A stretch of 64,000 bases of DNA, from the NCBI GenBank assembly GCA_016183325.1, contig JACPEV010000009.1, positions 1,303 through 65,302 on the forward strand, in the 5' to 3' direction. Below are positions 29,707 through 50,016 of this stretch, in pieces. The DNA comes from Candidatus Curtissbacteria bacterium. Its GTDB lineage: Bacteria; Patescibacteriota; Microgenomatia; Curtissbacterales; GWA2-41-24. How positions within the stretch are numbered: position 1 is the first letter of the stretch; each line of letters opens with the position of its first letter. The notes below the pieces were generated by a model that had not been told where the DNA came from, made no database searches, and saw only the letters and a program-made list of their open reading frames with translations. Both the position numbers and the translations under genes were made by a program.

Positions 29707-30882
29707 ATGAAAAATACTTTTTTCATCAAAACCTTTGGTTGTCAGCAAAATTTAGCCGATTCCCAGCGGATTGCAAGCTACTATCTTGCTCGCGGTTACC
29801 GTCAGACCAACACTATGGAGTCGGCAAGTGAAATTGTTATCAACACGTGCATGATTCGTCAAACCGCAGAGGACAAAGTTACGGGTCTTGTTAAAAATAT
29901 CTTAAAACAATCAGCTCTCCGAGCCAGAGGCTCTCTGAGCCGGAGGCCCAAAATTGTCATCACGGGCTGCATGGTGGGCATGGCTGTTCGCGACGAAACT
30001 GGCAAGTATTTAAAAGCCCTAAGAAAAAGAATGCCTGAAGTCGACGAGTTTTTACCCCTTGAGGAAGTTGGTTTCGATTATCCTGCCCTAAGAAATGATG
30101 TTACACATAGCTGGGTCCCGATCTCAAACGGTTGCAACAATTTCTGCACCTTTTGTGTCGTGCCCTTCACACGTGGTCGGGAAGTATCCCGTCCATTTGA
30201 GGACATAATCTCAGAAATCAAAGAATTAGCCAGCATTGGCTGCAGGGAAGTTACCTTACTCGGTCAAAACGTCAATTCCTATGGAGCCGACTTAGTAAAA
30301 AACTCAAAAGGCTACAAATTGCCAAATGGTAGGCTAGTCAAACCGGTAATGGTCAAACACTTGGGTCGTTATCGTATTCCGACGTTGTTTCCATATCTTT
30401 TGGAAGAAGTTTGCAAAATCAAAGGCATTAAGATCGTTAAGTTTATTTCCTCAAACCCTTGGGATTTTTCAGACGAACTAATTGATGTAATCACCAAAAA
30501 TAAAAAAATCGACAGAAATTTACACTTAGCAGTTCAGTCAGGAGATGACGGAGTTCTTAAAAGAATGAATAGATGGTACACGAGAGAAGAATATATTAAT
30601 CTGGTTAAAAAAATTAAATCAAAAATCAAAGGTGCTCAAATATCAACAGATATTATTGTTGGCTTTCCAGGCGAGACGGAAGACCAATTTAAAAATATTA
30701 TCAAACTCGCCAAAGAAGCAAACTTTGCCTATGCTTATGTCTCCAAATATTCCCAACGTCCCAATACTGCTGCAACCAAAGCTTTTCCGGATGATATTCC
30801 CCATACTGAAAAAGAACGTCGCTTCCACATTGTTGATCAGCTCATCAACCACAAGGGCAATCCCCGCTCAGCAGTTCACTGA
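29707..30882 (+). CDS. MiaB/RimO-family radical SAM methylthiotransferase (no obvious C-terminal TRAM domain)
   Basis: N-terminal MTTase domain FIKTFGCQQN; radical SAM CNNFCTFCVVP. Confidence 0.8.
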   Translation: MKNTFFIKTFGCQQNLADSQRIASYYLARGYRQTNTMESASEIVINTCMIRQTAEDKVTGLVKNILKQSALRARGSLSRRPKIVITGCMVGMAVRDETGKYLKALRKRMPEVDEFLPLEEVGFDYPALRNDVTHSWVPISNGCNNFCTFCVVPFTRGREVSRPFEDIISEIKELASIGCREVTLLGQNVNSYGADLVKNSKGYKLPNGRLVKPVMVKHLGRYRIPTLFPYLLEEVCKIKGIKIVKFISSNPWDFSDELIDVITKNKKIDRNLHLAVQSGDDGVLKRMNRWYTREEYINLVKKIKSKIKGAQISTDIIVGFPGETEDQFKNIIKLAKEANFAYAYVSKYSQRPNTAATKAFPDDIPHTEKERRFHIVDQLINHKGNPRSAVH

Positions 30883-30967: not shown

Positions 30968-32305
30968 TCATCTCCACGTCGGAAGCCACATATATTTATC
31001 TATCGCAGCTACTTCAATCGGCCAACCAGAGGAAATTGGATAAAAATAGAAGAAAACAACAGCCACCAGAATTAAAAATATCAACACCAAATATTTCGCT
31101 CTACTTTTGTAAATTTGAAAAAGTGCCACTCCTAAAGCTATCGCCAAAAATGGAAGAGATGGAAGATAGTGGTGTAAAAAAAGTATCCTTGGGGTAAAAA
31201 CGAATGGTAGCCAAAAGATAAAGTATCCCAGAAGTATCAGTAAATATTTCTTTTCTCTTTCCGCAATCAACCGCCCTACAATATAAGAAATAGCCACTAA
31301 TCCTGCCCAAAAAATTAAAGGATTTCCAAGCGCATAAATATAACCGGCTTTTTCTCCCGCTTCGCCGCGAGGCGAGCGAGGCGAGCCGTATTGCTCGTAA
31401 GAAAAATACACGGGGCGTATATCAAGCGCCCAAGGGCAAAAAGTTTTTGGGCCACTGAGCCCTTTGGGAGCACAAAAAATCGGTGTCGTTGCGTACGAAT
31501 GCTCAAGATCTCCTCGACTTTGATACCACCAAATTTGTTGGTGCAAGTTATAAAATTGTTTAAAAGTGTAACCTTGAAGCCAAAATTGGCTGTAAGACAG
31601 AAGGTAAATCACTCCCGGGATAATAAATAAACTCAAAATTTTAGGGCTCACTAGCTTCTGCTTGAAATCATCCCAGAAGATATAAATAAAAAGAGCCAAT
31701 ATTGCCCAGAAACCTGTCCATTTAGTTGCAATCGAAAAACCTAAAAATAGACTCGTTAAAAATAAGAGAACTGATCTTTTCTTAACACCTCCGAGGTGGC
31801 TGAAGGACTCCTCGGAGGTGGACCTTACATAAAGAGCAGCAAAAATAAACGACATTAATACAAAAAATGTCACAAAAACGTCATTCATCGTAATGCGGCT
31901 CATGACAAATGTTAAATTTTCAAACGCTATAACAGTGGCAGCAAAAATCGCAACCACCGGCCCAAATAACAAATTAGCAAGAACAAAAGTTGCGCCAATT
32001 ATGCCTGTGCCAAAAATAGCACTTGGCAACCTCCACCCAAATGGCACGTCACCGAAAATCTTGATCGACCCCGCCTGAATCAACTTTGCCAGCGGTGGAT
32101 GCAGCCAATCATAAGCGGTTCCCTCTTTAGGTGCTGGAGAAAAAGGATCATAAGGCGCCGGATTATTGTCAGCGTAAGCTTTCGCCGTCACCGCATGATA
32201 AACTTCGTCAAAGTAGTAGTGACTGGGCTCTGTCAATCGGAATAAACGGATCGCCAAGGAAAAAACTGTCAAAAATATAAGAAGAACAAAAATTATTCTA
32301 TTCAT
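30968..32305 (-). CDS. GT-C fold glycosyltransferase, PMT/GT39-like membrane protein
   Basis: N-terminal YYFDEVYHAVTAKAY...YDWLHPPLAKLIQAGSIKIFG (DE motif); contains an in-frame palindromic insert at 31786-31820. Confidence 0.7.
   Translation of the reverse strand: MNRIIFVLLIFLTVFSLAIRLFRLTEPSHYYFDEVYHAVTAKAYADNNPAPYDPFSPAPKEGTAYDWLHPPLAKLIQAGSIKIFGDVPFGWRLPSAIFGTGIIGATFVLANLLFGPVVAIFAATVIAFENLTFVMSRITMNDVFVTFFVLMSFIFAALYVRSTSEESFSHLGGVKKRSVLLFLTSLFLGFSIATKWTGFWAILALFIYIFWDDFKQKLVSPKILSLFIIPGVIYLLSYSQFWLQGYTFKQFYNLHQQIWWYQSRGDLEHSYATTPIFCAPKGLSGPKTFCPWALDIRPVYFSYEQYGSPRSPRGEAGEKAGYIYALGNPLIFWAGLVAISYIVGRLIAEREKKYLLILLGYFIFWLPFVFTPRILFLHHYLPSLPFLAIALGVALFQIYKSRAKYLVLIFLILVAVVFFYFYPISSGWPIEVAAIDKYMWLPTWR
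31786..31820. repeat. In-frame inverted-repeat mini-element cacctccgaggagtcc...cacctcggaggtg (minus-strand orientation) inside the GT39-like gene
   Basis: Same arms as the element at 41806-41887 in miaA; encodes STSEESFSHLGGV. Confidence 0.7.
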
Positions 32306-34149: not shown

Positions 34150-36078
34150 ATGGATTTAATGCTATTAACTATTTTAGTGATTATAATTACGGTTTTTTTT
34201 GGATATGCTATTTTAAGTCTTTTCGCAACGCAATTGAGATTCAACGAAAAAATAGCTTCTAGTTTTATAATTGGAATCTCGTTATATTCATTATTAACCT
34301 TTTTGATTGCGAATGTCTTTAAGTTAAGTTTTTTAACTATTTTTTTCTCTACAACAATTGTTGTCTTATTTGCGGTAGTAATTTTGGTAAAAAGAAAATC
34401 CTATTATTTCAAAGATTTTTTAACATCTCATGAGCAAATAAAAAATTTTTTGAAAAACAAGTATTTACTATTCACTTTTATTTTTTTCACCATTCTTTTT
34501 TCTAAAATTTTTTACCAAACTTTCGTTCCTGAAAAAGCCGGCTTTTATGCAGGTTCACTAGGATTTTGGGGTGATGGCGCTTTGCATCTCACATTGATTA
34601 ACTCCTTTTTTAAAGGAGATAATTTTTGGCCCCAACAACCACTTTTTGCAGGTGTTAAATTAAGCTATCCGTTTTTACCGGACTTCACCAGTAGTATTTT
34701 CCTAAAGTTGGGAAGTTCAGTGCGCACTGCTATAGCACTTCCTTCTGTACTATTACTTTCCGCATCAATCTTGCTTCTCTACTCGATTTTCCATCAAATA
34801 ACTAAATCTAAGCTTGCCGCTTCTCTAGCAATCTTCATAATATTTTTCCTTGGCGGTTTAGGTTTTATCTACTTCTTCGAGGATTTGGTCAGGACCAATT
34901 TCGCATTTTCTACATTTGCATATCCTCCAAGAGAATACACATCGATGGGAAACGAGAAAGGTATCCACTACATTAATCTAATTACATCTCCTATAGTTTC
35001 TCAAAGAGCCTTTTTATTTGGTTTTCCTCTGATTTTGGTAATTTATATGGTCTTAAGAGAGGCTTTGGAAAAGTTAGACGTAAAACAATTTATTTTCGCT
35101 GGTCTATTAGTAGGTGTTCTGCCATTTATACACAGTCACACTCTTCTGACCTTGGGAATTGCGTTGCCTGTATTTGCTTTAGTTAACCTAATTAATAGGC
35201 CAAAGTCCGAAATAAAAAAGCTCTTTTTATTGTGGACCATTTTTGGAATAATCGCTGCTGCTCTAATTGTCCCACAACTTTTATTGTTTTTTCCCCGGGA
35301 CATCTCGGTTAACACTCTGCGGTTTCAATTTGGCTGGATGGCTCATGTTAAAAATGACAATATTTTTTGGTTTTGGATCAAAAATACTGGCCTTTTAATA
35401 CCTTTAATTATATTGTCTCCAATAGTTTTAGGAAAACAGAAATTTATCAAACTCTTTAAGTTTTATTTGCCATTTTTGGGAATTTTCATTGTTGCAAATT
35501 TTATTATATTCCAACCCTTAGAATACGATAACAGTAAAGTTTTTAACTATTGGTATATTTTTTCCGCACCGCTTGCTGCAACAGTAATTATAAACTTTTT
35601 AAAGAGGAATTCACTGTTTAAAATTATTGGGGTGGTTCTTTTTATCGTCCTTATCTTATCAGGTTTTTTAGATGTTTGGCGCTTGAATAATTATCAAGAG
35701 AACAGAATTCTAATGTTTGATAATGAAAGTATTAAACTTGCTGATTTTGTTTCTATTCATACTGAACCAAGATCAATTTTTGTTACGGCCATTCAACACA
35801 ATCATTCTGTCTTAGCTCTTGCAGGAAGAAGGGTTTTAGTTGGTTACACTGGATGGTTGTGGACTTACAGTATTAACTATGGTCCACGTGAGCAAGATGT
35901 CAGAATGATCTATCAAGGGGGCAATCTATCCCAAAACTTACTTAATAAATATAGCGTTAATTATCTTGTTATCGGGCCAGTAGAGAGTTCGCAGTTTCAA
36001 ATAAATGAACAATTTTTCGAGCAAAATTTCGCCCGTATTTACTCAACGCCTGCGTATCGAGTTTATAAAATATCATGA
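34150..36078 (+). CDS. Large polytopic membrane protein, paralog family member 1 (642 aa)
   Basis: Shares N-terminal W.DG.H....SF.KGDNFWPQQPLFAG..LSYPFL and C-terminal LAGRRVLVGYTGWLW...GPREQDV motifs with 37455-39251 and 39294-41201. Confidence 0.7.
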   Translation: MDLMLLTILVIIITVFFGYAILSLFATQLRFNEKIASSFIIGISLYSLLTFLIANVFKLSFLTIFFSTTIVVLFAVVILVKRKSYYFKDFLTSHEQIKNFLKNKYLLFTFIFFTILFSKIFYQTFVPEKAGFYAGSLGFWGDGALHLTLINSFFKGDNFWPQQPLFAGVKLSYPFLPDFTSSIFLKLGSSVRTAIALPSVLLLSASILLLYSIFHQITKSKLAASLAIFIIFFLGGLGFIYFFEDLVRTNFAFSTFAYPPREYTSMGNEKGIHYINLITSPIVSQRAFLFGFPLILVIYMVLREALEKLDVKQFIFAGLLVGVLPFIHSHTLLTLGIALPVFALVNLINRPKSEIKKLFLLWTIFGIIAAALIVPQLLLFFPRDISVNTLRFQFGWMAHVKNDNIFWFWIKNTGLLIPLIILSPIVLGKQKFIKLFKFYLPFLGIFIVANFIIFQPLEYDNSKVFNYWYIFSAPLAATVIINFLKRNSLFKIIGVVLFIVLILSGFLDVWRLNNYQENRILMFDNESIKLADFVSIHTEPRSIFVTAIQHNHSVLALAGRRVLVGYTGWLWTYSINYGPREQDVRMIYQGGNLSQNLLNKYSVNYLVIGPVESSQFQINEQFFEQNFARIYSTPAYRVYKIS

Positions 36079-36100
36079 GAATTAAAACTTTATCTTTTTA

Positions 36101-37463
36101 ATGCGTACAACTTTATTCACCATTTTGCTGTTGTTGATTACAATTTTAGGTTTAATTCTACGATTTTTAGATTATGACAAATTCCCTCCATTTGATGCCA
36201 CTAAGGATGAATTCTTTTATTCTTGGGCAGGGATGTCTTTAATTCAAACGGGTACTCCAAAATCTTGGTCAATATTTAACGCATATCCAGATGGAGAACT
36301 TGTTTATAAATGGGGTACATGGTATAGGTTAGTTTCTCCTTGGTTAGATAAACCTCCGTTATATTCTTTAATTACTGGTTCATGGGTTTTATTAAATGGT
36401 GCAAGAGATCTATTCGATGTACGTCTATCCATCTTGAGAGTTATCCTTATTTTTTAAAGTTTTTTCACTATTTTCTTAACCGGTATATTAGCTAAAAAAA
36501 TTTTCTCGCCAACAGTCGGAATTCTTGCCTCATTGCTATATGCATTCACTCCGACCATAGTAATATCTAATCGTCTTTCACTTACTGAAAACTTACTAAC
36601 ACCGCTCTCTCTTCTTACTCTTTGGTTTTTCTCCCAAAATCAACAGGGGATATGGTCAAAAATCAAACCTTGGGTCGTCGGATTGACTTGCGGCTTGGCT
36701 CTCATCTCCAAAAATATCGCCATCACCTTGCCAGCTGTCTTAATCTGGTTGCTTTTCGAGAAAAAACAATGGCGTAATTTATTAATCATTGCTGCATTTT
36801 CTTTATTCTTTGCCTTAATCCATCCCCTTATCGGTCTTTATTACAATTGGGATCTTTATCTTGCAGTCTTGGCCGATTATGGAAAGGCCCACAGTCTGGG
36901 ATTACCCAAGCTAGTTACTACTCTCTTCAGATTCCCCGTCATTGGCCATAAAGAAGCCATTTTCCTAGATGGATCCATACTCGCAGGCTATATTCTTTTT
37001 TTTCAGTTCGCCGTTTTGGCTAAAAGGCAAATTAGAAGATATGAATCTTAAACTACTGTTAGCTTTTCCCTTTGCTACTCTGGTTCTCCTTTCAGAATTA
37101 GAAGGCGGAAAGACCTTTTTCGGTTGGCACCTATTTCCTCTATTTCCGTTTCTCTCGATACTTCTGGCCAAAGCCTTTTACGATCTCTGGCAAAATCCCA
37201 ATTTATTAAAATCATTGTTTTTCTATCTAATTCTCGGCTCATCAACGGTCCGCTTTTTTCTACTCTTGACACTCCAATCTCAAAAATCATGGCAATGGAT
37301 TTTAGGGACGTTGTTGGTAATTTTAATTGTTGGATTTTTCCCGAAAACTGCCTATCGACGAATTGTCTTACTGGCTTACTTTATGGTGTTTTTCGTTGTC
37401 AATGTTTTAGTAGTCATCAATCTAAACCAAATTTATCCCAGCTATCCGCAACCCTTAGAGTAA
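36101..37463 (+). pseudogene. Disrupted PMT/GT-C-like glycosyltransferase gene (in-frame TAA at 36455-36457, then a frameshift near 36970-37050)
   Basis: ORFs 36101-36457 and 36533-37051 are in the same frame, separated by one stop with continuous sense on both sides. Third piece 36969-37463 is in another frame; T8 homopolymer at ~36998. Confidence 0.55.
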
Positions 37464-39251
37464 GAGAACTAAGTATTTCTGATTCTGGTAGACTTTTTTG
37501 AACTGTTGTGGAGCTTCGAAGTTATATTTATCGACGGGAATTACTATGTATTTAACAGGTACCTCCAAATTACCAATCTGCGAAAAATTACCAGCTAAAA
37601 TTTGATTAACTTCTTGTTCCCGCTTACCATAATCAATTCCATGAACCCAAAGATGTCCGGGATAACCGATGTAAACTAAACGTCCAGCCAATCCAGAAAT
37701 TGGGTTGACAGGAGTTGGTTCAACTATAAACACGTCACGAGTATTGGTGTTTGATTTTGCCCAATTGGCAAGATCAATATCCCAATTGTCATAAAGTACG
37801 TATCTATTTTTTAATTGCAATTCTAAAGATAAAGATCCGCTGGCGATAGAGATCAGGATAATTACTCCGGCAGTGACCTTTGCGACTAGTCCCTTTTGGG
37901 CAAGTTTTGCAAGCAAAAATCCAGTCAAAATCACAAAAAACAAGAAAGACCACGATAAAAGCTTTATATTATCCCAATCCCAAGGCTGAAAAATCACCAA
38001 ATTGGCGATTATAAAAACCACAAAAGCAGGAATAAAGAATATTTTTTGATCACGCTTTACAAACCAAAACCCCAGTATTGCCAAAGGAATTGTCAAAAAC
38101 GTATTTTTAAGCCAAAAGACTAGAATATTTTCATCCCCATTTTGCCAACCCAGACTTGTATGCAAGAATTGACTAACTTGATGATTTGTAAAAAACAAAA
38201 ATAAAAAGGGGACCATCGTCGCAACAGCCACCAAACCCATTGAAGAAAAATCAACAAATGCTTTTTTGAAATTTTGTCGCATTGACCAGACAGCAAAGAT
38301 TGCACTAACAATTGAGAAGAAAATAAAAGAGTGTGTATGCCAGAAAGGCAAAGATCCCAAAATCAGACCGTTAATCAACAAAAGCTTTCTATCCTTTGGC
38401 CCGAAATATTCCATGAAATTTGAAAACATCAAAAGCCCTAAGAAAAGCCCCGGCAAAAAACTTCTCTCAGACAATACAAGTCCTGTCAAGATATTGCGAA
38501 AGTATAAATTATATTGGGCATTATCAGTATAATCTTTTGTCAAAAATTGCCAAAAGCCTCCACCTTGAGTACCCCATTCATTTAAAAAGAAAATTACGCC
38601 AACACCCCAACCCAAAAATAAAATCAAAAGTGAGATCACAAAACCTATATCCGAAGTAAATTTTCTACAAATCTGATAGAAGAGAACCAAAAATCCTATC
38701 AAAAACAAAATCTGTGGTAAGGAAAATGCTAAATTGAAATTTAAACCGGCGATTTTTAGTGTTGACGAAAGTAAATCATTGGCAAATGGATAAACTAAAA
38801 TGCGGCCTGCAAAAAGAGGATTCTGGATTGGAAACTCACCGGTTGTCAGTCGTGAAGTATAGGCGGCATGCAGAGCCGAGTCTCCATACATCCCACCGCC
38901 ACCAGTTTTTAATCCAACGCTTGTTGCAGCCAGGGTTTGGGTCAGCCAAATATAAGCCAATAACATCGTTGTAACTGCGGTGACTGCCAAAAATACTGGC
39001 GAAATTTCGCCAAAATCGTTCTTCGGTTTAAACTTCACAAAAATTGTCAATGCCAAGATTCCTGCCACAATCAGTGCTACAATAACCCCATTGAATAAAC
39101 CTAGAAAAAAAGAAAAAAGCAGCGCAAGCTCGCCAAAAACAAAAAGACCTAAAGCCGGTGCCACCAATAACCTGTATGGCCAGCCAAAATTTTTAGGCAA
39201 AATAGGGACAAATCCTATCCCCAAGGCCGCAATAGCCAAAAGCAAAAGCAT
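37455..39251 (-). CDS. Large polytopic membrane protein, paralog family member 2 (598 aa)
   Basis: Motifs PIQNPLFAGRILVYPF and LAGRLVYIGYPGHLWVHGIDYGKREQEV. Confidence 0.7.
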   Translation of the reverse strand: MLLLLAIAALGIGFVPILPKNFGWPYRLLVAPALGLFVFGELALLFSFFLGLFNGVIVALIVAGILALTIFVKFKPKNDFGEISPVFLAVTAVTTMLLAYIWLTQTLAATSVGLKTGGGGMYGDSALHAAYTSRLTTGEFPIQNPLFAGRILVYPFANDLLSSTLKIAGLNFNLAFSLPQILFLIGFLVLFYQICRKFTSDIGFVISLLILFLGWGVGVIFFLNEWGTQGGGFWQFLTKDYTDNAQYNLYFRNILTGLVLSERSFLPGLFLGLLMFSNFMEYFGPKDRKLLLINGLILGSLPFWHTHSFIFFSIVSAIFAVWSMRQNFKKAFVDFSSMGLVAVATMVPFLFLFFTNHQVSQFLHTSLGWQNGDENILVFWLKNTFLTIPLAILGFWFVKRDQKIFFIPAFVVFIIANLVIFQPWDWDNIKLLSWSFLFFVILTGFLLAKLAQKGLVAKVTAGVIILISIASGSLSLELQLKNRYVLYDNWDIDLANWAKSNTNTRDVFIVEPTPVNPISGLAGRLVYIGYPGHLWVHGIDYGKREQEVNQILAGNFSQIGNLEVPVKYIVIPVDKYNFEAPQQFKKVYQNQKYLVLLL

Positions 39252-39293
39252 GATATTAGTATATTTAGTATATAGAGTACAATACTTGCAGTC

Positions 39294-41201
39294 ATGGGCT
39301 CAATTTTTTTGCTTCTCTCCTCATTTATCTCTGGCCTGGCAACTTTAGAATTAACCCAGATTGTTTTGCCTTGGCCAGTGCGTGCTGTTTTTGCCACCGT
39401 TTTAGGTCTTATTATTAATACTTTAGCCATCTTTTTAGTTTCTCTATTTGTAAAATTTAATCTGATCAGTGTCCTGGTAACAATCTTTTTAATTTCTTTG
39501 CCTTCATTAATTTATTTAATTAAAAAATCTTCGTTTCAAAATATTATTGAAGATAATCTGGATATTAAAAAGAATTGGCAGATAATTTTAGGATTTTCGA
39601 TCATTACAATTTTTTTAATTTTAATTTTTAGCAAATCTATTTTCGTCAATTCCAGTGGCATCATCGCAGGCAACCGTCTCGTTTGGACCGATTGGCCAGT
39701 CCACATAGCCATCATTACATCGTTTGTGAAAGGTGATAATTTCCCGCCCCAGAACCCATTATATGCAGGCCAACTTATCTCCTATCCTTTCCTCTCAAAT
39801 TTTCTCTCAAGTGTCTTGCAGATTTTAGGCGCTAGCCTAAAAACCTCTCTGGTTCTTCCGGGCATACTTCTTGGACTGTCGGCAATAACAACCGTCTATT
39901 TTTTGGGGATTCTCTTAACAGCCCAAAAACAGATGGCCATCACAGGACTTTTGATCGGCGTTTTTTGGGGAGGATTGGGATTTTTATATTACGCTGTCGA
40001 CCTGCTTTCATCACCCAATTTTATTGAAACACTCAAGTTTCCTCCAATAGAGTACACTTTTTATCATCTCAAAAATTTATGGTTTTTCTCATTTTTGTAC
40101 TCTGAACTTTTACCTCAAAGGGCTTTCCTCTTTGGCCTGCCAATGTTTTTTATGGCACTGATACTCTTGATTCTTGGATTATCCCACCATAAAAAGACCT
40201 ATTTACTAGTCGCTGGTTATTTGGTTGGCATCATGCCCTTTTTCCATATGCATTCTTATCTTAGCTTCTTACTTTTCAGTGTTATTTTTATTCCGCTTGC
40301 GCAAGTTACCAGTTTAAAAAAAAATGGCCAAACTTCGACCAAAAGACAACTAATCTATGTCATTATTTATTTTGCCCTGCCCATCATTGGTCTTGGTTTA
40401 ATTCAACTCCCGTTTTTGCTTTCAATTAATTTAAATCAAACTTTTGGTTTTAACTGGGGCTGGATGAAAGAGCAAGAAAACTTTTTTTTATTTTGGTTTA
40501 AAAATACCGGATTCTTCTGGCCTCTATGGCTCTTTGCAATTTTCAAAACCAAATTAAATCAACTTGTCAAAAATGTGGCCATTGCCTCAGCAATTTTATT
40601 TATACTACCTAATATTTTTCGCTTTGCTCCCTGGCCCTATGACAATCTAAAAATTATGACTTATTGGTATTTAATCGGCGCTTTTTTAGTTGCCATTGCC
40701 CTAGTAGAAATCTACAAAAAAGGTCTTTCGGGGAAAATTTTGGCCATCGCTCTTTTTATTTCTCTGACTGCATCAGGAGCAATCGAGGTTTTTCGAATTT
40801 TCAATACCCCAAAAACTCAAATTCCTCTTTGGTCCTCAAAGGACATCGAACTTTCAAACTCTATCATTAAAAATACCGAAGCAGAGTCAGTAATCTTAAC
40901 CGCCGCCGTCCACGATCATCCCGTAACTGCCCTTGCTGGCAGAAAAATCATCATTGGTTTTCCCGGCAACGCCTGGTCATGGGGACTTGCCGATTGGTCA
41001 CAAAGAGAAGCAGATGTTAGAACCATCCTCAAGGGTGATGCCATTTATGCTCCTTATCTTCTTGCCAAATATAAAGTCAACTATGTCCTGATCAGTCCTC
41101 GAGAAAGATATTTTGAACCGGGTTTAAATGAACAGTACTTTCAAGAGAAATTTACCTTTGTCATTGGCGATTCTGATTACAAATTGTTTAAAGTCCCATG
41201 A
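39294..41201 (+). CDS. Large polytopic membrane protein, paralog family member 3 (635 aa)
   Basis: Motifs PPQNPLYAGQLISYPFL and LAGRKIIIGFPGNAWSWGLADWSQREADV. Confidence 0.7.
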   Translation: MGSIFLLLSSFISGLATLELTQIVLPWPVRAVFATVLGLIINTLAIFLVSLFVKFNLISVLVTIFLISLPSLIYLIKKSSFQNIIEDNLDIKKNWQIILGFSIITIFLILIFSKSIFVNSSGIIAGNRLVWTDWPVHIAIITSFVKGDNFPPQNPLYAGQLISYPFLSNFLSSVLQILGASLKTSLVLPGILLGLSAITTVYFLGILLTAQKQMAITGLLIGVFWGGLGFLYYAVDLLSSPNFIETLKFPPIEYTFYHLKNLWFFSFLYSELLPQRAFLFGLPMFFMALILLILGLSHHKKTYLLVAGYLVGIMPFFHMHSYLSFLLFSVIFIPLAQVTSLKKNGQTSTKRQLIYVIIYFALPIIGLGLIQLPFLLSINLNQTFGFNWGWMKEQENFFLFWFKNTGFFWPLWLFAIFKTKLNQLVKNVAIASAILFILPNIFRFAPWPYDNLKIMTYWYLIGAFLVAIALVEIYKKGLSGKILAIALFISLTASGAIEVFRIFNTPKTQIPLWSSKDIELSNSIIKNTEAESVILTAAVHDHPVTALAGRKIIIGFPGNAWSWGLADWSQREADVRTILKGDAIYAPYLLAKYKVNYVLISPRERYFEPGLNEQYFQEKFTFVIGDSDYKLFKVP

Positions 41202-42271
41202 AAAGAGTGCTTGTAATTTATGGCCCTACCGCAACCGGCAAGACTGATCTGGCTATTTCTTTAGCCAAAAAATTTAATGGAGAAATAATTTCTGCAGATT
41301 CTAGACAAGTCTATAGAGGTTTGGATATTGGCACAGGCAAAGTATCAATTCAAAAGTTAAGCGATCCAGCAATTCAGAAGTTCGAAAGCTTCTGGGTTGT
41401 AGATGGTGTCAGAATTCACGGTTTCGATCTGGTAGGATCACCCGTTCACGAACCCGGCTTGCAGAATTATTCCAAGCCGGGTTCGGAAGCTTTGGTTCGA
41501 TTTTCCGCCGCTGATTTCTTAAAATTTGCATCTACTACGATGATTCGAATCATTGAACAAAACAAATTACCTATTGTAGTAGGCGGGACGGGATTTTATA
41601 TTAAGACTTTAACTAGCGGTGTTGATACAATCGGAATTCCGGCAAATCCCGTACTACGTCGACAACTTGCTGATTTGTCAGTTGGCGAGCTTTATCAAAA
41701 ATTCGAATCGATCGATCCAAATCGCGCCAGATCAATGAACAGATCGGATCGTGCTAACCCTCGCCGGCTGATTCGTGCCATTGAAATCGCAATTCATAAG
41801 TCGTTCACCTCCGAGGAGTCCCCTTCGACTACTTCGACTACGCTCAGTACAAGTTCACTCAGGGCAAGCGAGCCCACCTCGGAGGTGAACACGAGCTACC
41901 AACTACCCGCTACCAGCTACTTACTCCTCGGTCTAACCGCCCCCAACAATTTCCTCTACCAGCGAGCCGATTGGTGGCTCGATCAGCAGCTTGCCCATGG
42001 CATGATCGAAGAAGTCCAAAAATTACTCGATCACAAAATTAACCCAATTTGGCTTGATAGCTTAGGACTTGAATATCGCTGGCTTTCTCGATACTTACTG
42101 AGGAAGATAAGTTTTAAAGAAGCTGTCGCCAGACTTAAAGGCGACACTCACAGTTTTATCAGACGCCAAAAAACCTGGTTTAGAAAGTTTAAAAACATCC
42201 AACTTTTTGATATCTCAAAAGACAATTGGCAAAAAGAGTTAGAAAAGAAACTTCAGCTTTGGTATCATTAA
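41198..42271 (+). CDS. miaA: tRNA dimethylallyltransferase with ~35-aa low-complexity in-frame insertion
   Basis: GPTATGKTDLAI P-loop, ADSRQVYRGLDIGT; insertion ...SFTSEESPSTTSTTLSTSSLRASEPTSEVNT... encoded by a palindromic element. Confidence 0.85.
   Translation: MKRVLVIYGPTATGKTDLAISLAKKFNGEIISADSRQVYRGLDIGTGKVSIQKLSDPAIQKFESFWVVDGVRIHGFDLVGSPVHEPGLQNYSKPGSEALVRFSAADFLKFASTTMIRIIEQNKLPIVVGGTGFYIKTLTSGVDTIGIPANPVLRRQLADLSVGELYQKFESIDPNRARSMNRSDRANPRRLIRAIEIAIHKSFTSEESPSTTSTTLSTSSLRASEPTSEVNTSYQLPATSYLLLGLTAPNNFLYQRADWWLDQQLAHGMIEEVQKLLDHKINPIWLDSLGLEYRWLSRYLLRKISFKEAVARLKGDTHSFIRRQKTWFRKFKNIQLFDISKDNWQKELEKKLQLWYH
41806..41887. repeat. In-frame inverted-repeat mini-element cacctccgaggagtcc...(53 nt)...cacctcggaggtg inside miaA
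   Basis: Perfect 11-bp inverted arms cacctccgagg / cctcggaggtg; internal tandem cttcgacta x2; same arms as 31786-31820. Confidence 0.7.
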
Positions 42272-43307: not shown

Positions 43308-43374
43308 AAACAGCTTCTCGCCAATTTTGAAAAATTACCCATTTCTGGTAAAATATATGTTGCTTTTGGGAAGA

Positions 43375-43715
43375 AGAACGATCGCCCCGTACCATACGGT
43401 ACGGGGAGGAAAGTCCAGACAGCAGGAAGCAAAGGATCCCGCGTAAGCGGGGACTAGAAATAGCTGGTGTCTTGGCTCTTTACCCGCATGCGGAGCCAAG
43501 AACAGGTCTTGAGTTTACAAGACTTGAGAGCAACAGAGACGAGCGGGAGTGAAACGGGCAATCCTACTTGCTGCAACCCAGATTTGAACCGATCTAGCCA
43601 TAGGCTGGTCAGTCTTTGGCTAATGACCATGCTTCCGGGAGGTTCAGAGTAGGGGCATCCTGTTAAAAACCAGGACGAAGTGGCTAATTCGTCATTTCGA
43701 GATAGATGATCGTAA
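43375..43715 (+). ncRNA. rnpB: Probable RNase P RNA
   Basis: ccccgtacc-ata-cggtacgggg hairpin followed by GGAGGAAAGTCCAG (P4 5'-strand-like); ...GCAACAGAGAC...GTGAAACGGGC...; ~340 nt of hairpins with only a spurious 61-aa ORF. Confidence 0.5.
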
Positions 43716-43815
43716 AAACCAAGTCTGACTTGGTAAAACAGAATCTGGCTTACATCTTCCCAAAAGCATTTTTAAAGAATTTGACTAATTTTGTCAAAGG
43801 TGTAATCATATTTGT

Positions 43816-46292: not shown

Positions 46293-49202
46293 ATGATTCA
46301 CCAAATAAGTATTACCGCAAAAAGCAAGAAAGATCCTCTAGGGCAGGATTTACTCGCCGAGATTAAAAGAACACTGGGGATTAACAATATTAAAAACATA
46401 AGAACAGCCAAAATTTACAGACTTCAAGGTGTAAGCTTAAAAAAAGCCCAAGAATTTACCCAAAAAGTTTTATTCGAGCCGATTGATCAAGTAATGTCTT
46501 TTGACAAACCATTATTCAATGATGCTGGTCAAAAAATTGAGGTCGCCTACAAACTTGGGGTTATGAATCCTGAAGTTGGATCGCTACTTAAGTCGGCAAT
46601 TGACCTTGGTATCAATCTGGAAGCGGCGGACGCTTCTCGTCAGTACGCTTTTTATGGAGGTCTGACAAAGGAACAACTTGCAGAGATTGCCGTCAGACTT
46701 TTAGTTAACAAAACTGTTGAGCAAATCATCGAAAAACCTCCGAAAAATCTTATTATCACTGGCAAGGTCCAAAAAACAGAAAAAATTCTGATCAGAAATA
46801 TGAACGATAGTCAACTAGTAAAGCTTTCAAAAGACAAGCTATTTCTCAACTTAGAAGAAATGAAAGTAATACAAAATTATTTTAAAAAAATAAAAAGGGA
46901 TCCTACCGATTGTGAAATTGAAGTTCTTGCCCAAACATGGAGCGAACATTGTGTGCATAAAACTTTCAAAGCCAAACTCATTGTCGATGGCAAAGTCAAA
47001 AAACCGTTAATTGAGAGGATTAAGGCAACTATCAAAAACAACCCCAAAATTGTAGTCTCCGCTTTTGTCGACAATGCCGGTGTCATCGATTTTTATGACG
47101 GTTTTGCCATAAACGGCAAAGTCGAAACTCACAATTCTCCATCAGCAATCGAACCTTATGGTGGGGCAATGACCGGTTCCGGAGGTGTTTTTCGCGACAT
47201 CCTTGGGACTGGGCAAGGAGCAAAAGTTGTCGCATCAACCGACATTTTTTGTTTTGCGCCTCCCAATACGTCTTCAAAATTAATTCCCCCGGGCTGTCTT
47301 CCTCCGGACTATCTTTTAAGAAAGGTTGTTGCCGGCGTTCGAGATTACGGGAATAGAGTTGGCATTCCCACCAACAACGGGTCAGTCCATTTTCATCAAG
47401 ATTTTCGTGCCAAGCCCACAGTTGCCGCAGGCGCTTACGGCATTGTTCCCAAAAAACAAGCAAAAAAACAATGGCCCAAAAAGGGTGATCTTATTTTGAC
47501 TATTGGAGGCCGAACTGGTCGTGATGGTATCCATGGCGCTACTTTTTCTTCAGGCGAAATGACCGACCGCACAATTTCAGTTTCCGGCTCGGCAGTTCAG
47601 ATCGGCAACGCTATTGAAGAAAAAAGAATGATCGATGCCATCCTGACACTTCGTCAAAATGGTTTAGTCAGAACATTAACCGACTGCGGCGCCGGCGGTT
47701 ACTCATCGGCAGTTGGCGAAATGGGCCAAAAAATTGGCGCCCGAGTTTATCTTGAAAAAGTTCTTCTCAAATATACTGGTCTTGCTCCTTGGGAAATATT
47801 TCTTTCCGAATCGCAAGAGCGCATGGTACTTTGTGTTTCGCCCCGTCAGATTAAAAAAGTTAAAGAAATTTGCCAACTTTACAACGTCGAAGTAACCGCA
47901 ATCGGCAAGTTTGACGGTTCAAAAAGGCTTAAGGTTCTTTATAAAGATCAAGTAGTTTGCGATCTTGCGATGAAATTTTTACATGAAGGTCTTCCTCAAA
48001 GAAAAATGATAGGAACGACCGCAAAAAAACAAATCAAAGAAAAATTACCGGCAAAAAATATCGACCTTGAAAATATCTGGCAAAAGATCATGTCTCATGG
48101 CAATGTTTGCTCAAAAGAGCCAATAGTAAGAATGTATGATCATACAGTCCAAGGCACAAGCTCCCTGCCACCTCTTTGCGGGGTCAATCAGGATGCTCCA
48201 AATGACGGAGCAGTTATTCGCCCTATTTTAAAAAAACCATATGGCCTGGTTATAACTCACGGATTGAATCCCTCCCTGAATAAAATCGATCCTTATAAAG
48301 GCAGTATTTGGGCGATACTTGAAGCGGTATCAAACTATGTTGCAGTCGGTGGCAATTTAAAGGACGCTGCCTTAATAGACAATTTTATCTGGTCATTTCC
48401 AGACGAAAAAAGTCTTGCCGATTTGGACAAATCGGTTGATGCTTGTATCAAAATGGCCAAAATTTTAAAAATGCCTTTCGTTTCCGGCAAAGACAGTCTT
48501 TCATCAACGTACAGATTTAGAGATGGCCGAATTTTAAAAATTCCACCTGTTCTTTTAATTTCCGTTTTTGGAAAAATTCCTGATGTCAACAAAACCGTCA
48601 GCTCTGACTTTAAGAAAATTGGATCTACAATAGTTTTAGTTGGCAAACCGGATATCAATAACCTTGGTGGCACAGTTTACTTTGATCTAACAGACTCAAC
48701 GAGTCCCAATGTTTCAAGTCCTGATCTTCAACCTACAACAAAAGTTCTTTCGACAATCACTTCAGTGATTCGAAACGGTGAAGTAATGTCTGTCCATGAT
48801 ATTTCTGAAGGAGGACTTGCAGGATCACTCGCCGAAATGTGCTTTGGGGGTGATTGTGGAGCTAAGATCGATTTAGCTAACATTAAAAATTATCAAAAAA
48901 TTCGCTATAGCAAAAAAATGGAAAATAGTGTCAATGTAACCGACACCCCCGGGGTGGGCAAAACAAGACCGGACTTTATTTTATTTAATGAAACCCCAGG
49001 AACCTTTTTGGTAGAAGTGGCAAATCCCCAACTTGCTCAAAAACTTTTTGCCAAAGTCCCTCACTATATTCTTGGACAGACCATAGCAGATCAATCAATT
49101 ATCGTCGCGCAGGGATCTAAAAAAATTGTCAGAATTGATGTCGGTAAACTTAAACAATCGTGGCAAAAGCCAATGAAAGAAATATTTCATTATGAAGCCT
49201 AA
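46293..49202 (+). CDS. purL: Phosphoribosylformylglycinamidine synthase, PurS-like N-terminal domain fused to PurL
   Basis: 969 aa; N-terminal ~80 aa PurS-like, then PurL AIR-synthase-related domains (VEXHNSPSAIEPYGGA, DCGAGG). Confidence 0.85.
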   Translation: MIHQISITAKSKKDPLGQDLLAEIKRTLGINNIKNIRTAKIYRLQGVSLKKAQEFTQKVLFEPIDQVMSFDKPLFNDAGQKIEVAYKLGVMNPEVGSLLKSAIDLGINLEAADASRQYAFYGGLTKEQLAEIAVRLLVNKTVEQIIEKPPKNLIITGKVQKTEKILIRNMNDSQLVKLSKDKLFLNLEEMKVIQNYFKKIKRDPTDCEIEVLAQTWSEHCVHKTFKAKLIVDGKVKKPLIERIKATIKNNPKIVVSAFVDNAGVIDFYDGFAINGKVETHNSPSAIEPYGGAMTGSGGVFRDILGTGQGAKVVASTDIFCFAPPNTSSKLIPPGCLPPDYLLRKVVAGVRDYGNRVGIPTNNGSVHFHQDFRAKPTVAAGAYGIVPKKQAKKQWPKKGDLILTIGGRTGRDGIHGATFSSGEMTDRTISVSGSAVQIGNAIEEKRMIDAILTLRQNGLVRTLTDCGAGGYSSAVGEMGQKIGARVYLEKVLLKYTGLAPWEIFLSESQERMVLCVSPRQIKKVKEICQLYNVEVTAIGKFDGSKRLKVLYKDQVVCDLAMKFLHEGLPQRKMIGTTAKKQIKEKLPAKNIDLENIWQKIMSHGNVCSKEPIVRMYDHTVQGTSSLPPLCGVNQDAPNDGAVIRPILKKPYGLVITHGLNPSLNKIDPYKGSIWAILEAVSNYVAVGGNLKDAALIDNFIWSFPDEKSLADLDKSVDACIKMAKILKMPFVSGKDSLSSTYRFRDGRILKIPPVLLISVFGKIPDVNKTVSSDFKKIGSTIVLVGKPDINNLGGTVYFDLTDSTSPNVSSPDLQPTTKVLSTITSVIRNGEVMSVHDISEGGLAGSLAEMCFGGDCGAKIDLANIKNYQKIRYSKKMENSVNVTDTPGVGKTRPDFILFNETPGTFLVEVANPQLAQKLFAKVPHYILGQTIADQSIIVAQGSKKIVRIDVGKLKQSWQKPMKEIFHYEA
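48945..48958. repeat. In-frame palindrome cacccccggggtgg inside purL
   Basis: Third member of the caccccgggggtg family (encodes DTPGVG). Confidence 0.5.
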
Positions 49203-50016
49203 AGTTTGTATTTTAAGAACCGACGGTACCAATTGCGATGAAGAGCTCTTTTATGCCTTTGAGAAATTTGGCGCCGCTCCCCAGTATGTCCACGTCAATC
49301 AGCTAAGAGCTAAAAGCAAAAAGCTAAAGGCATTCCAGATTCTGGCCCTTCCCGGCGGTTTTTCTTATGGAGATGATGTCGCCTCCGGCAAAATTCTGGC
49401 TGTTGAGTTGATTTCATACCTCAAAGATCAACTTCAGGAATTTATCAGCAAAAATGGACTTGTGATCGGCATTTGTAATGGTTTTCAAACACTCGTGCGA
49501 ACTGGCCTTTTGCCATTTGGCCATTTAGGCAAGATGGAGGCAACTCTTGCCCAAAACGAAAGCGGTCATTTTGAATGTCGCTGGATCAGATTAAAAATCG
49601 AAAAAAGCCGCTGCCCCTTTTTAAATCTCTATCTCAAACCGGGTTTGCCTACGTATTCCAAACCCGGTTTGGATAATGGTTTGGAAAATGGCGTCTTTGA
49701 ATTGGCCGTTAATCATGGTGAAGGTCGCTTTTTCGCCAACAATGAAACAATTGCAACAATGGAACAATCAAATCTCGTTGTGTTTCGCTACGTTGATGGA
49801 AAAGGTAAACCAACTGGGCATTATCCCGAGAATCCCAATGGTTCAATCAACGCTATCGCTGGAGTCTGTGATCCAACCGGTAGAATCTTAGGCTTGATGC
49901 CCCATCCCGAAAAATTCGTCGACATTACTCAATACCCAAACTGGCGCCGGGGAAAAGTGACCGAACCCCATGGAGCCTTTATCTTTAAACAACTGATAAG
50001 ATTTGCCACTGTCTGA
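49192..50016 (+). CDS. purQ: Phosphoribosylformylglycinamidine synthase, glutamine amidotransferase subunit
   Basis: MKPKVCILRTDGTNCDEE...; GIC catalytic cysteine; overlaps the purL stop. Confidence 0.85.
   Translation: MKPKVCILRTDGTNCDEELFYAFEKFGAAPQYVHVNQLRAKSKKLKAFQILALPGGFSYGDDVASGKILAVELISYLKDQLQEFISKNGLVIGICNGFQTLVRTGLLPFGHLGKMEATLAQNESGHFECRWIRLKIEKSRCPFLNLYLKPGLPTYSKPGLDNGLENGVFELAVNHGEGRFFANNETIATMEQSNLVVFRYVDGKGKPTGHYPENPNGSINAIAGVCDPTGRILGLMPHPEKFVDITQYPNWRRGKVTEPHGAFIFKQLIRFATV

What the first reader, a model, noticed from the sequence alone, without database searches (positions are those of the whole stretch)
41806..41887. RPE-like in-frame palindromic mini-element shared by miaA and a GT39-like gene
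Seen directly: cacctccgaggagtcc ... cacctcggaggtg, with perfect 11-bp inverted arms, lies inside miaA on the + strand (53-nt spacer, containing tandem cttcgacta x2). The same motif lies inside the PMT/GT39-like gene on the minus strand (31786-31820, 6-nt spacer). Both copies are in-frame and both encode a TSEES-containing Ser/Thr-rich peptide (miaA ...SFTSEESPSTTSTTLSTSSLRASEPTSEVNT...; GT39 ...STSEESFSHLGGV...). MiaA is ~40 aa longer than usual because of it. This resembles Rickettsia palindromic elements that insert in-frame into ORFs (established phenomenon; the analogy here is inference).
Basis: partly seen in the sequence, partly recalled or inferred. Interest (0 to 1): 0.75.

Follow-up and report, generated by a model that had tools for sequence, protein, structure and literature searches.

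The report
Palindromic mini-repeats inside bacterial genes
Two housekeeping genes of an uncultured Curtissbacteria (CPR) bacterium carry copies of the same tiny GC-rich hairpin-forming repeat, read through in frame as floppy surface loops; this extends a phenomenon known from Rickettsia and from REP elements to a new bacterial group.

Summary
CACCTCCGAGGAGTCC…CCACCTCGGAGGTG occurs twice, in frame: in miaA (41803-41890, +) and in a GT39/PMT gene (31786-31820, -). The 11-mer gives 6 hits against 0.37 expected, and both copies fold far better than shuffles (z about -5).

About 110 of 120 GT39 orthologs lack the insert; seven carry it at the same codon. In MiaA the element sits in a hypervariable linker. 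About 15 of 120 orthologs carry it there, with the arms identical at nucleotide level although synonymous sites are saturated.

The same arms occur in frame in unrelated genes (atpG-, rarA-, pth-, glyS- and purL-like) of several CPR lineages. AlphaFold gives low confidence only at MiaA's two palindromic inserts.

Three more GC-rich insert types sit in window genes (two clean hairpins, two weaker); most insertions relative to close orthologs are of this kind.

The 11-nt core ACCTCSGAGGT also forms hairpins that bracket Y1/RAYT transposase genes in Chloroflexota and Ignavibacteria. CPR genomes encode RAYTs, but none was found next to this element.

Verdict: a REP/RPE-like intragenic palindromic repeat family, a new variant of a known kind. 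RAYT mobilisation is inferred. The nucleotide conservation at orthologous sites is unexplained.

The parts
41803..41890 (+). F1 copy A: an 88-nt palindromic element inside miaA. It has 14-nt perfect arms (41803-41816 and 41877-41890) and a 60-nt loop, and encodes FTSEESPSTTSTTLSTSSLRASEPTSEVN.
   Evidence: (I20) show the sequence and arms. One search gives -39.1 kcal/mol, z -5.0. One search gives pLDDT below 50 for residues 206-233.
41825..41842 (+). Tandem 9-mer CTTCGACTA x2 inside the loop of copy A. It is part of a 27-nt loop expansion relative to the orthologous copy in L084.
   Evidence: L084 reads TCCCCTTCGACTTCACTCAGGGCAAGC where the window has 27 extra bases.
31786..31820 (-). F1 copy B: a 35-nt element inside the GT39/PMT gene with 11-nt perfect arms. 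On the coding strand it reads CACCTCCGAGGAGTCCTTCAGCCACCTCGGAGGTG and encodes TSEESFSHLGG. The second arm is read in a different frame from that in miaA.
   Evidence: Searches show the sequence and arms. One search gives -21.6 kcal/mol, z -5.0. Searches show it is absent from about 110 of 120 orthologs and from syntenic L210.
41198..42271 (+). Host gene miaA (tRNA dimethylallyltransferase, 357 aa). F1 lies in the linker between helix 188-204 and strand 240-247.
   Evidence: Pfam IPPT; 100% identical to an NCBI Curtissbacteria MiaA; PDB MiaA homologs.
30968..32305 (-). Host gene: GT39/PMT-family glycosyltransferase (445 aa). F1 lies in a short Lys/Arg-rich loop between hydrophobic segments.
   Evidence: (PF02366, PF13231, PF16192).
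41449..41485 (+). Sister family F2 in miaA: CGAACCCGGCTTG-n11-CAAGCCGGGTTCG, encoding HEPGLQNYSKPGS. It accounts for 17 of MiaA's extra residues.
   Evidence: One search shows the repeat. One search shows the insertion relative to L210 and L087. One search gives -23.3 kcal/mol, z -7.6. One search gives pLDDT below 50 for residues 89-98.
49635..49671 (+). Second F2 copy: CAAACCGGGTTTG-n11-CAAACCCGGTTTG, in the purQ-like ORF 49192-50013, encoding KPGLPTYSKPGL.
   Evidence: One search shows the repeat. One search gives -18.6 kcal/mol, z -5.3. One search shows a +17-aa insertion relative to the L081 ortholog (69% identity).
29912..29948 (+). Sister family F3 in the miaB-like radical-SAM gene (29707-30882): GC-rich imperfect palindrome CTCTCCGAGCCAGAGGCTCTCTGAGCCGGAGG, encoding ALRARGSLSRR. 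Variant palindromes occupy the same site in L081 and L087; L210 has none. A related copy is at 17993-18044.
   Evidence: One search gives -19.8 kcal/mol, z only -1.8.
31352..31392 (-). Sister family F4 in the same GT39 gene: an 80% GC insert encoding GSPRSPRGEA. Related GC-rich sequences are at 5888-5915 and 215-245.
   Evidence: (+10 aa relative to L210, L081 and L087), and 47 (z -1.35, a weak fold).

Best explanation
F1 is a family of very short (35-88 nt), GC-rich, non-coding-origin palindromic repeats. They are REP-like in size and shape and RPE-like in behaviour. Copies have been placed into permissive loops of protein-coding genes in an AT-rich (39% GC) Curtissbacteria genome and are translated in frame.

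Anatomy (shown): two 13-nt arms, CACCTC-C-GAGG(T/A)G and CACCTC-G-GAGGTG. The arms are inverted repeats of each other, and each is itself nearly palindromic. They flank a loop that varies from 5 to 60 nt and grows by local duplication or by nested palindromes. The arms contain no stop codon in any of the six frames. Copies are read as TSEE/TSEV, HLRG/HLGG or PPR/PRR, depending on phase and orientation.

Persistence (inferred): only copies that keep the frame and land in disordered surface loops survive selection.

Spread (inferred, about 40% confidence for this step): copies are made in trans by a hairpin-recognising HUH/Y1 tyrosine transposase of the RAYT type acting on single-stranded DNA.

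Function (inferred): the protein segments themselves probably have none.
For: Shown directly:
- The repeat is non-random and folds strongly.
- GT39: about 110 of 120 orthologs are empty at the site. Seven carry F1 or a decayed form at the same codon, and they are interleaved with empty relatives at distance 0.13-0.14. Syntenic L210 is empty, and the insert is 39 nt.
- The identity lies in the DNA, not the protein. The second arm is read as PTSEV in miaA and as HLGG in GT39.
- The arms are 29-30/30 nt identical in five MiaA lineages whose 4-fold-type third positions are only 35-47% identical.
- The three arm variants seen all keep pairing: G.T in L086 and L087, and a compensatory T-A in L211.
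- Fourteen copies with the same arms occur in Curtiss-, Davies-, Roizman-, Beckwith- and Saccharibacteria MAGs and in 38-42% GC MAGs labelled Gammaproteobacteria. Twelve of the 14 lie inside open frames of 137-907 aa, with the frame kept on both sides. I read the hosts from flanking residues as AtpG, RarA, Pth, GlyRS and PurL-like; they were not run through a domain search.
- Three Daviesbacteria copies in different proteins also share loop sequence.
- The AF2 model of MiaA has mean pLDDT 81, and the only segments below 50 are 89-98 and 206-233. These are the two palindromic inserts.
- Census against close orthologs: of the insertions of 4 aa or more in window proteins relative to L210, five events are GC-rich palindrome-like inserts, though the F3 and F4 folds are not significant (z -1.8 and -1.35). 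The remainder are an N-terminal start-codon difference, LTSHE in a 32%-identity pair, and LSDP. A PurQ F2 insertion appears relative to L081.

For the RAYT step:
- The identical 11-nt core ACCTCSGAGGT forms 29-33-nt hairpins that bracket Y1_Tnp genes on both sides in L109, L203 and L190, and lie next to them in L098 and L165.
- CPR genomes encode RAYT-like genes bracketed by their own hairpins (L068, L213, L216).
- The RAYT search returned 2639 homologs, and several of the named ones are labelled Patescibacteria.
- Intragenic REPs and RPEs are an established phenomenon (PMC3733652).
Against: - No RAYT or other transposase was found in the window or in any held locus that carries F1. The CPR RAYTs I could inspect are flanked by different, AT-richer hairpins, and those showed no dispersed copies in 7-20 kb.
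- No target-site duplication and no GTAG/CGTC tag were seen.
- Copy number is known only for 64 kb (two elements).
- A purely selfish, neutral element should decay at orthologous sites. Instead the arms are conserved beyond synonymous saturation, so something else must act: selection, gene conversion or site-specific re-insertion.
- The same sites are occupied by other palindrome families in other lineages, which a random-insertion model explains only through strong permissiveness filtering.
- Translation of the insert is inferred from frame conservation, not observed.
Confidence: 0.62

Rival explanations
1. F1 is a functional nucleic-acid signal rather than a selfish repeat. The hairpin, or its 13-bp palindromic arms, would be kept by selection as a binding or processing site. 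Candidates are a dimeric DNA-binding protein, an RNase or RNA-binding protein site in the mRNA, a DNA-uptake-type signal in these probably competent CPR cells, or a structure that masks the strong internal Shine-Dalgarno-like GGAGGTG by pairing it with the anti-SD-like CACCTCC.
For: - The arms are identical at nucleotide level at the orthologous MiaA site in five lineages with saturated synonymous sites.
- The variants seen keep pairing.
- Each arm is itself a 13-bp palindrome with an odd C/G centre, as are the arms of F2 (second copy) and of the hairpin at 295-348. This geometry is typical of dimer-binding sites.
- The same arms are kept across several CPR classes.
- The arms contain exact SD and anti-SD strings (read directly from the sequence).
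Against: - Density is low: 4 arms in 64 kb. By my recollection, known uptake sequences occur about once per kb.
- Most orthologs of both genes do without it.
- Decayed copies exist (P0126 STSQESKSTSKV, P0233 STSKESKPTFEV, P0005).
- Hosts are unrelated housekeeping genes with no common theme.
- No start codon follows the SD-like arm in miaA.
- The element is absent from 789 kb of other Microgenomates loci.
Confidence: 0.2
2. F1 is an ancestral, protein-level feature: a Ser/Thr/Glu-rich flexible linker inherited vertically and lost in many lineages. It would resemble the GT39 segment by convergence on low-complexity sequence.
For: About 15 of 120 MiaA orthologs carry an F1-type peptide (TSEES...PTSEV, TSEV...TSEV or decayed forms) at the same position. 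The segment is a disordered linker.
Against: - There are 16 + 14 nt of exact identity between unlinked genes.
- The second arm is translated in a different frame in GT39 (HLGG against TSEV).
- All ten third-codon positions of the arms except one are invariant, while flanking synonymous sites are 35-47% identical.
- The same DNA occurs in all three frames in unrelated proteins of other lineages.
- The distribution is patchy on both trees.
Confidence: 0.04
3. The hairpins arise locally and repeatedly by template switching or slippage at structure-prone linkers, next to heptamer arrays. Similarity between sites would then reflect mutational convergence or gene conversion rather than transposition.
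For: - The MiaA linker is full of slippage products: (GTATCAA)x4 in L210, CTACCAG-type heptamers after F1 in the window, and a 9-mer tandem plus a 27-nt expansion inside the F1 loop.
- Compensatory variants occupy the same site in the MiaB-like gene.
- No target-site duplication or transposase was found.
Against: Local processes cannot produce the same 13-nt arms, and in Daviesbacteria similar loops, in unrelated genes of different classes of bacteria. Nor can they produce the near-identical 34-35-nt element shared by the window GT39 gene and by L140 and L176.
Confidence: 0.1

Closest known systems
Rickettsia palindromic elements (RPE-1 to RPE-8). The original description (Ogata et al. 2000, Science) is cited from memory; the link of RPE-4/6 to CGTC-tagged REPs comes from PMC3733652.
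   Same: - Dispersed palindromic repeats that sit in frame inside conserved housekeeping ORFs of a small-genome bacterium.
- Orthologs without the insert exist.
- The inserts map to surface or disordered loops.
- No transposase is attached and no target duplication is seen.
   Different: - F1 is 35-88 nt, against roughly 100-150 nt for RPE-1 (from memory).
- No sequence relation was seen (not formally aligned), and the phylum differs (CPR/Patescibacteria).
- F1 arms are themselves palindromic and carry no CGTC tag.
- F1 arms stay identical at orthologous sites across deep divergence.
REP/REPIN elements and their RAYT (Y1/HUH) transposases, including the intragenic REPs described by Di Nocera et al. 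2013 (PMC3733652).
   Same: - A hairpin repeat with a stem of 11-14 bp.
- Multiple families occur in one genome.
- Some REPs lie entirely within ORFs and encode 20-30 residues in linkers or loops.
- The 11-nt core ACCTCSGAGGT of F1 is exactly the core of hairpins that bracket RAYT genes in Chloroflexota and Ignavibacteriaceae.
- CPR genomes have RAYTs bracketed by hairpins.
   Different: - There is no GTAG or CGTC tag.
- No RAYT was found next to any F1 copy.
- F1 is predominantly intragenic: 12 of 14 genome-scan copies and both window copies, whereas REPs are mostly extragenic.
- The F1 loop can reach 60 nt.
GC clusters and 'byp' elements of yeast mitochondria (cited from memory; related papers were listed but not read).
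   Same: GC-rich palindromic mini-elements that spread in an AT-rich compact genome and can sit inside coding sequence.
   Different: Byps are skipped by the ribosome and need not keep the frame. All F1 copies in ORFs keep the frame and lack stops, which argues that they are read through. The genetic system is organellar and the sequences are unrelated.
Small dispersed repeats and heptamer STRR arrays of cyanobacteria (Elhai et al. 2008), cited from memory. The paper is not in the searchable library; it is cited by papers listed.
   Same: - Very small (about 20-30 nt) hairpin repeats that nest inside other repeats.
- They co-occur with heptamer tandem arrays, as in the MiaA linker here.
   Different: The cyanobacterial elements are mainly intergenic and have a different sequence. 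No in-frame coding habit has been described for them, to my knowledge.

Membership tests
RPE (Rickettsia palindromic elements) | Dispersed palindromic repeat present in several copies | tested here: met
   There are two copies in 64 kb, copies at orthologous sites in relatives, and 14 copies in other genes and genomes.
RPE (Rickettsia palindromic elements) | In-frame insertion in conserved ORFs, with orthologs that lack it | tested here: met
   For GT39, about 110 of 120 orthologs are empty and syntenic L210 is empty. The MiaA minimal linkers are about 6-8 aa, against 15-44 aa with F1.
RPE (Rickettsia palindromic elements) | Insert lies at the protein surface, away from the core fold | tested here: met
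   In the AF2 model the only segments with pLDDT below 50 are the two inserts, both between secondary-structure elements. This is a model only, not a solved structure.
RPE (Rickettsia palindromic elements) | Sequence and length of an RPE family (about 100-150 bp consensus, Rickettsia lineage) | tested here: not met
   F1 is 35-88 nt and the host is Curtissbacteria. No formal alignment to RPE consensus sequences was possible because they were not available in the tools.
REP / REPIN with RAYT | Short hairpin repeat (stem 5-13 bp, loop 2-20 nt; Table 1 of PMC3733652) | tested here: met
   Copy B has an 11-bp stem and a 13-nt loop. Copy A exceeds the loop range at 60 nt.
REP / REPIN with RAYT | GTAG or CGTC tetranucleotide tag at one end | tested here: not met
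   The flanks of all copies were read and show no conserved GTAG or CGTC. The ends are C...G.
REP / REPIN with RAYT | Cognate RAYT gene bracketed by the same hairpins in the same genome | tested here: inconclusive
   No RAYT lies in the window or in the held F1 loci, but only 8-64 kb per genome was available. The same core brackets RAYTs in other phyla. CPR RAYTs exist with other hairpins.
REP / REPIN with RAYT | Predominantly extragenic location | tested here: not met
   Both window copies and 12 of 14 scan copies lie inside long ORFs.
MITE | Terminal inverted repeats plus a target-site duplication, derived from an IS | tested here: not met
   Terminal inverted repeats are present, but no direct duplication flanks any copy and no parent IS was found.
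DNA uptake sequences (DUS/USS) | Very high genomic density (about 1 per kb, from memory) of one short motif | tested here: not met
   There are 4 arms in 64 kb and none in 789 kb of other Microgenomates loci.

The most novel reading that the evidence does not exclude
F1 and its sister palindromes are not passive junk. They would be the visible output of an active system conserved across several CPR lineages: for example a vertically inherited RAYT-like enzyme, or a hairpin-binding factor. That system would keep re-writing or maintaining specific GC-rich hairpins at a limited set of permissive linker sites in housekeeping genes and structural RNAs. This would explain three things: the arms stay identical at orthologous sites after synonymous saturation, different palindrome families alternate at the same codon in different lineages, and the RNase P P3 helix shares its sequence with intragenic copies.
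Probability: 0.18. Interest if true: 0.8.

Novelty: new variant of a known kind. Interest (0 to 1): 0.55.

Why it matters
CPR/Patescibacteria genomes are usually described as streamlined and poor in mobile DNA (my general knowledge). Here a 64-kb stretch carries at least six GC-rich palindrome-like inserts inside conserved genes, and the same repeat recurs in frame in housekeeping genes of several CPR lineages.

This matters in four ways:
- It gives a concrete source of lineage-specific protein loops in these organisms.
- It is a caution for alignment, annotation and assembly: one independent assembly breaks inside the element.
- It offers a tractable case for the old question of how RPE/REP-type hairpins get into ORFs and stay there. 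The shared core with RAYT-flanked REPs gives a testable enzyme candidate.
- The nucleotide conservation at orthologous sites is not predicted by the neutral selfish-DNA view.

Tried and rejected
- Rfam at gathering threshold found nothing in the window and no family over the non-CPR hairpins, so no known RNA family covers the element.
- A literature search for the motif strings returned only unrelated primer hits. Searches for CPR plus palindromic or MITE terms returned nothing relevant.
- The metagenome scan with MiaA brought mostly distant relatives (at most 55% identity) without the motif. It served only as a negative control of 789 kb.
- I tried to list all host proteins through the peptide STSEES(K/E)PTSEV.
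- I scanned the C-termini of 120 CPR RAYT homologs for F1-encoded peptides. The candidate 'STSDVEH' (P0288) turned out to be encoded by a different, AT-rich hairpin, ATGTTCAACATCCGATGTTGAACAT, so no F1-RAYT pair was found.
- I looked for target-site duplications around all copies and found none.
- Rejected readings: an intron, intein or bypass element, because the frame is always kept, there are no stops, and the element is too short; a terminator, because no T-run follows; an assembly artefact, because a second assembly is identical and ENA, JGI and Logan assemblies carry the orthologous copies.
Full report
**Source and observation.** MiaA from the window is 100% identical to an NCBI protein of 'Candidatus Curtissbacteria bacterium' on a 66-kb contig. 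The window is 38.8% GC.

- Copy A lies in miaA (41198-42271, +). It has a perfect 14-nt inverted repeat, GTTCACCTCCGAGG and CCTCGGAGGTGAAC, at 41803-41816 and 41877-41890.
- Copy B lies in a GT39/PMT gene (30968-32305, -) at 31786-31820, with perfect 11-nt arms.
- On the coding strands both begin with CACCTCCGAGGAGTCC and end with CCACCTCGGAGGTG.
- The 11-mer with up to 1 mismatch gives 6 hits against 0.37 expected.
- GC-rich perfect inverted repeats number 5 against 0.37 in shuffles.
- Both copies fold about 5 sd better than shuffles.
- A Logan assembly is 100% identical over 29164-41850 and stops inside the loop of copy A.

**GT39: a clear insertion.** Among 120 orthologs at 58-68% identity, about 110 have a short loop (LYVK-xx-xx-LLLTS).
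- Only the window protein and P0122, P0123, P0124 and P0146 carry the element at that codon. P0126 and P0233 carry decayed versions. P0132 carries a different palindrome-derived peptide at the same place.
- The syntenic locus L210, on a 467-kb contig with the same gene order, is empty. The window has 13 extra residues (39 nt).
- On an NJ tree, filled and empty proteins are interleaved at distances of 0.13-0.14. For example, filled P0146 sits next to empty P0209.
- So there were several gains at one site, or many precise losses.

**MiaA: a hot-spot linker.** The stretch between RAIEIA and TxYxLPxTxY is hypervariable.
- Minimal linkers are about 6-8 aa.
- Others are filled by F1 (TSEES[K/E]PTSEV, or TSEV...HTSEV), by heptamer arrays (KYQVSSIKYQ, which is (GTATCAA)x4 in L210; NQKPETRNQK), or by other palindrome-derived peptides (SHSGVATTTIESRS..SLRSRMT; LTPGVS..TPGVS).
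- About 15 of 120 orthologs carry F1-type or decayed F1-type peptides. They are scattered on the tree, though enriched near the window protein.
- In the window, L081 (two right arms), L084, L086 and L087, the arms are CACCTCCGAGGAGTC and CCCACCTCGGAGGTG. Only two single changes occur, and both give G.T.
- Third positions of conserved 4-fold-type codons in the same genes are only 35-47% identical.
- In the GT39 copy of L211 the outermost pair has changed on both sides, to TACCTCC and GGAGGTA.
- The window's loop is the L084 loop plus 27 nt of local duplication.
- MiaA is 38 aa longer than the L210 protein. F1 explains about half of that. A second palindrome at 41449-41485 explains 17 aa.

**The identity is in the nucleic acid, and the element is dispersed.** The second arm is read as PTSEV in miaA but as HLGG in GT39.
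- A scan of one genome per species with ACCTCCGAGG-N5-35-CCTCGGAGGT stopped at its 120-locus limit.
- Fourteen loci have the same C...G-bounded arms (CACCTCCGAGGTG ... CACCTCGGAGGTG) and are 34-47 nt long. They are three contigs of one Curtissbacteria MAG, three Daviesbacteria MAGs, Roizman-, Beckwith- and Saccharibacteria MAGs, and five 38-42% GC MAGs labelled Gammaproteobacteria or Pseudomonadales.
- Twelve of the 14 lie inside open frames of 137-907 aa that continue on both sides. I read these from flanking residues as AtpG-, RarA-, Pth-, GlyRS- and PurL-like proteins; no domain search was run. All three phases are used.
- L140 and L176 carry an element almost identical to copy B. Three Daviesbacteria copies in different proteins also share loop sequence.
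- The motif is absent from 789 kb of more distant Microgenomates loci.

**Structure.** With the 39-sequence alignment, AlphaFold2 gives mean pLDDT 81. The only segments below 50 are residues 89-98 and 206-233, both coil between secondary-structure elements. These are exactly the two palindromic inserts. Solved MiaA structures align on both sides of the linker.

**A wider population in the window.** I compared window proteins with their L210, L081 and L087 orthologs. Most internal insertions of 4 aa or more are GC-rich, palindrome-like segments:
- F3 in the MiaB-like gene. Variant palindromes occupy the same site in L081 and L087, with GAGCC/GGCTC changed to GAGTC/GACTC.
- F1 and F4 in GT39.
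- F2 and F1 in MiaA.
- F2 in the PurQ-like gene.

F2 folds very well (z -7.6 and -5.3). F3 and F4 fold only weakly (z -1.8 and -1.35).

The arms of F1, of the second F2 copy and of the intergenic hairpin at 295-348 are each 13-bp palindromes with a C or G centre.

**Link to REP/RAYT.** Most scan hits outside CPR are 29-33-nt hairpins of the form AGACCTCCGAGGTyTTnAArACCTCGGAGGTCT. They come from Chloroflexota, Desulfobacterales, Thiotrichaceae, Methylococcaceae, Ignavibacteria and cyanobacteria, often with several per MAG. No Rfam family covers them.
- The most recurrent neighbouring protein is a Y1_Tnp (IS200-like) protein.
- The hairpins bracket this gene on both sides in L109, L203 and L190, and adjoin it in L098 and L165. 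This is the REP-RAYT arrangement described in PMC3733652.
- A CPR contig in hand (L068) encodes a RAYT-like protein bracketed by ATGTGCAACAC-CGA-GTGTTGCACAT hairpins.
- Its homologs number 2639, several named Patescibacteria and one named 'REP-associated tyrosine transposase'.
- L213 and L216 show the same arrangement with co-varying hairpins, and the gene keeps its chromosomal position between L068 and L213.
RAYT mobilisation of F1 is therefore an inference from the shared 11-nt core and from the presence of RAYTs in the group.

**Interpretation.**
- Shown: a dispersed palindromic repeat sits in frame, in permissive loops of conserved genes, with empty orthologs, and is shared across CPR lineages.
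- Inferred: it is translated, because the frame is always kept, there are no stops, and the arms are stop-free in all six frames.
- Inferred: it persists because only loop-located, in-frame copies survive.
- Inferred, more weakly: it is copied by a RAYT-type enzyme.
- Not explained by a neutral selfish model: the arms are identical at orthologous sites after synonymous saturation, and different palindrome families alternate at the same codons.
- These two points keep a functional-signal reading, or an active site-directed process, alive. I give that about 0.2.

**Comparison with known kinds.** F1 works like RPEs and like the intragenic REPs of Di Nocera et al. (PMC3733652). It fails membership of both. 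It has no RPE length or lineage, no GTAG/CGTC tag, no adjacent RAYT found, and it is mostly intragenic. It also lacks the target duplication expected of a MITE. I found no description of such elements in CPR in the searchable literature. I rate it a new variant of a known kind, of moderate interest.

Noticed in passing
window 43366-43767 (+); also 389-410 and 58035-58056: An RNase P RNA (bacterial class A) scores 78 bits, below the gathering score of 100, so the default Rfam run missed it. Its P3 helix is CCCCGTACC-ATAC-GGTACGGGG. The same palindrome occurs inside ORF 57848-59191 (RPAPYRMVTGQAR) and at 389-410: 3 hits against 0.01 expected.
   Followed up: partly
window 21770-21843 (-) and 21626-21643 (-): I read the first as a tRNA with anticodon GGG (Pro). 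It has an odd T-loop (GGCGGAA). ARAGORN found no tRNA in the window, and the whole-window Rfam gathering run also missed it, although it scores 43 bits against a threshold of 29 when searched locally. A tmRNA-like 3' end lies just downstream, so an undetected ssrA gene may be there.
   Followed up: partly
window 289-354: An intergenic 66-nt hairpin (-36.8 kcal/mol) is built from two 13-bp palindromes, GAGGTCCGACCTC and GAGGTCGGACCTC. This is the same 'palindromic arms' design as F1, with the half-sites swapped.
   Followed up: partly
window 36101-37460 (+): Three consecutive short ORFs (118, 172 and 164 aa) each match part of one 453-aa PMT_2 glycosyltransferase of L210. This is a split or frameshifted gene. 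The same fragmentation appears in the Logan assembly L212.
   Followed up: partly
window 41891-41925; L210 MiaA linker (within 963-1922, -): Heptamer tandem arrays lie inside the MiaA linker: CTACCAG-type in the window and (GTATCAA)x4 in L210. They are read in all three phases (TSYQLPATSY; KYQVSSIKYQ) and recall cyanobacterial STRR heptamers.
   Followed up: partly
window 13953-14076, 25740-25783, 30882-30969: Inverted clusters of TATCCGAAT / ATTCGGATA lie in intergenic gaps, for example between the convergent miaB-like and GT39 genes. All five exact copies lie in these three spots. With 1 mismatch the motif is not enriched (24 against 18.9).
   Followed up: partly
L109 26-737; L203 1186-1842; L190 4592-5272 (also L098, L165): A cross-phylum REP family with core ACCTCSGAGGT brackets Y1_Tnp/RAYT genes in Chloroflexota, Anaerolineae and Ignavibacteriaceae MAGs. 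It occurs in many copies in Thiotrichaceae, Desulfobacterales and cyanobacterial MAGs. In L109 a degenerate copy lies inside the RAYT ORF itself (454-483). I found no description of it in my literature searches.
   Followed up: partly
L068 734-1399; L213 10001-10651: The CPR RAYT-like gene keeps the same chromosomal position (between thrS and dnaE) in two related genomes. Its flanking hairpins co-vary (GTGCAACAC/GTGTTGCAC against GTGCAAAAC/GTTTTGCAC). The 3' hairpin encodes the protein's C-terminus (VQHSVLH).
   Followed up: partly
L213 986-1023; L216 8279-8310: Other CPR genomes also carry GC-rich perfect hairpins inside ORFs: GAGACCCGCTCTCC-n10-GGAGAGCGGGTCTC in gatB, and CTCTTCCGGAG-n10-CTCCGGAAGAG in an LTD-domain gene. 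The habit may be general in the group.
   Followed up: no
window 63517-63592 and 17993-18044: Further GC-rich palindromic islands lie inside ORFs 62230-63816 (LRSTSLRSSRVGLGAG) and 17941-18435 (SSSLSLGVEDLRAGGQ). The latter shares CTCAGAGCCGGAGGCC with the F3 copy in the miaB-like gene. Orthologs were not compared.
   Followed up: no
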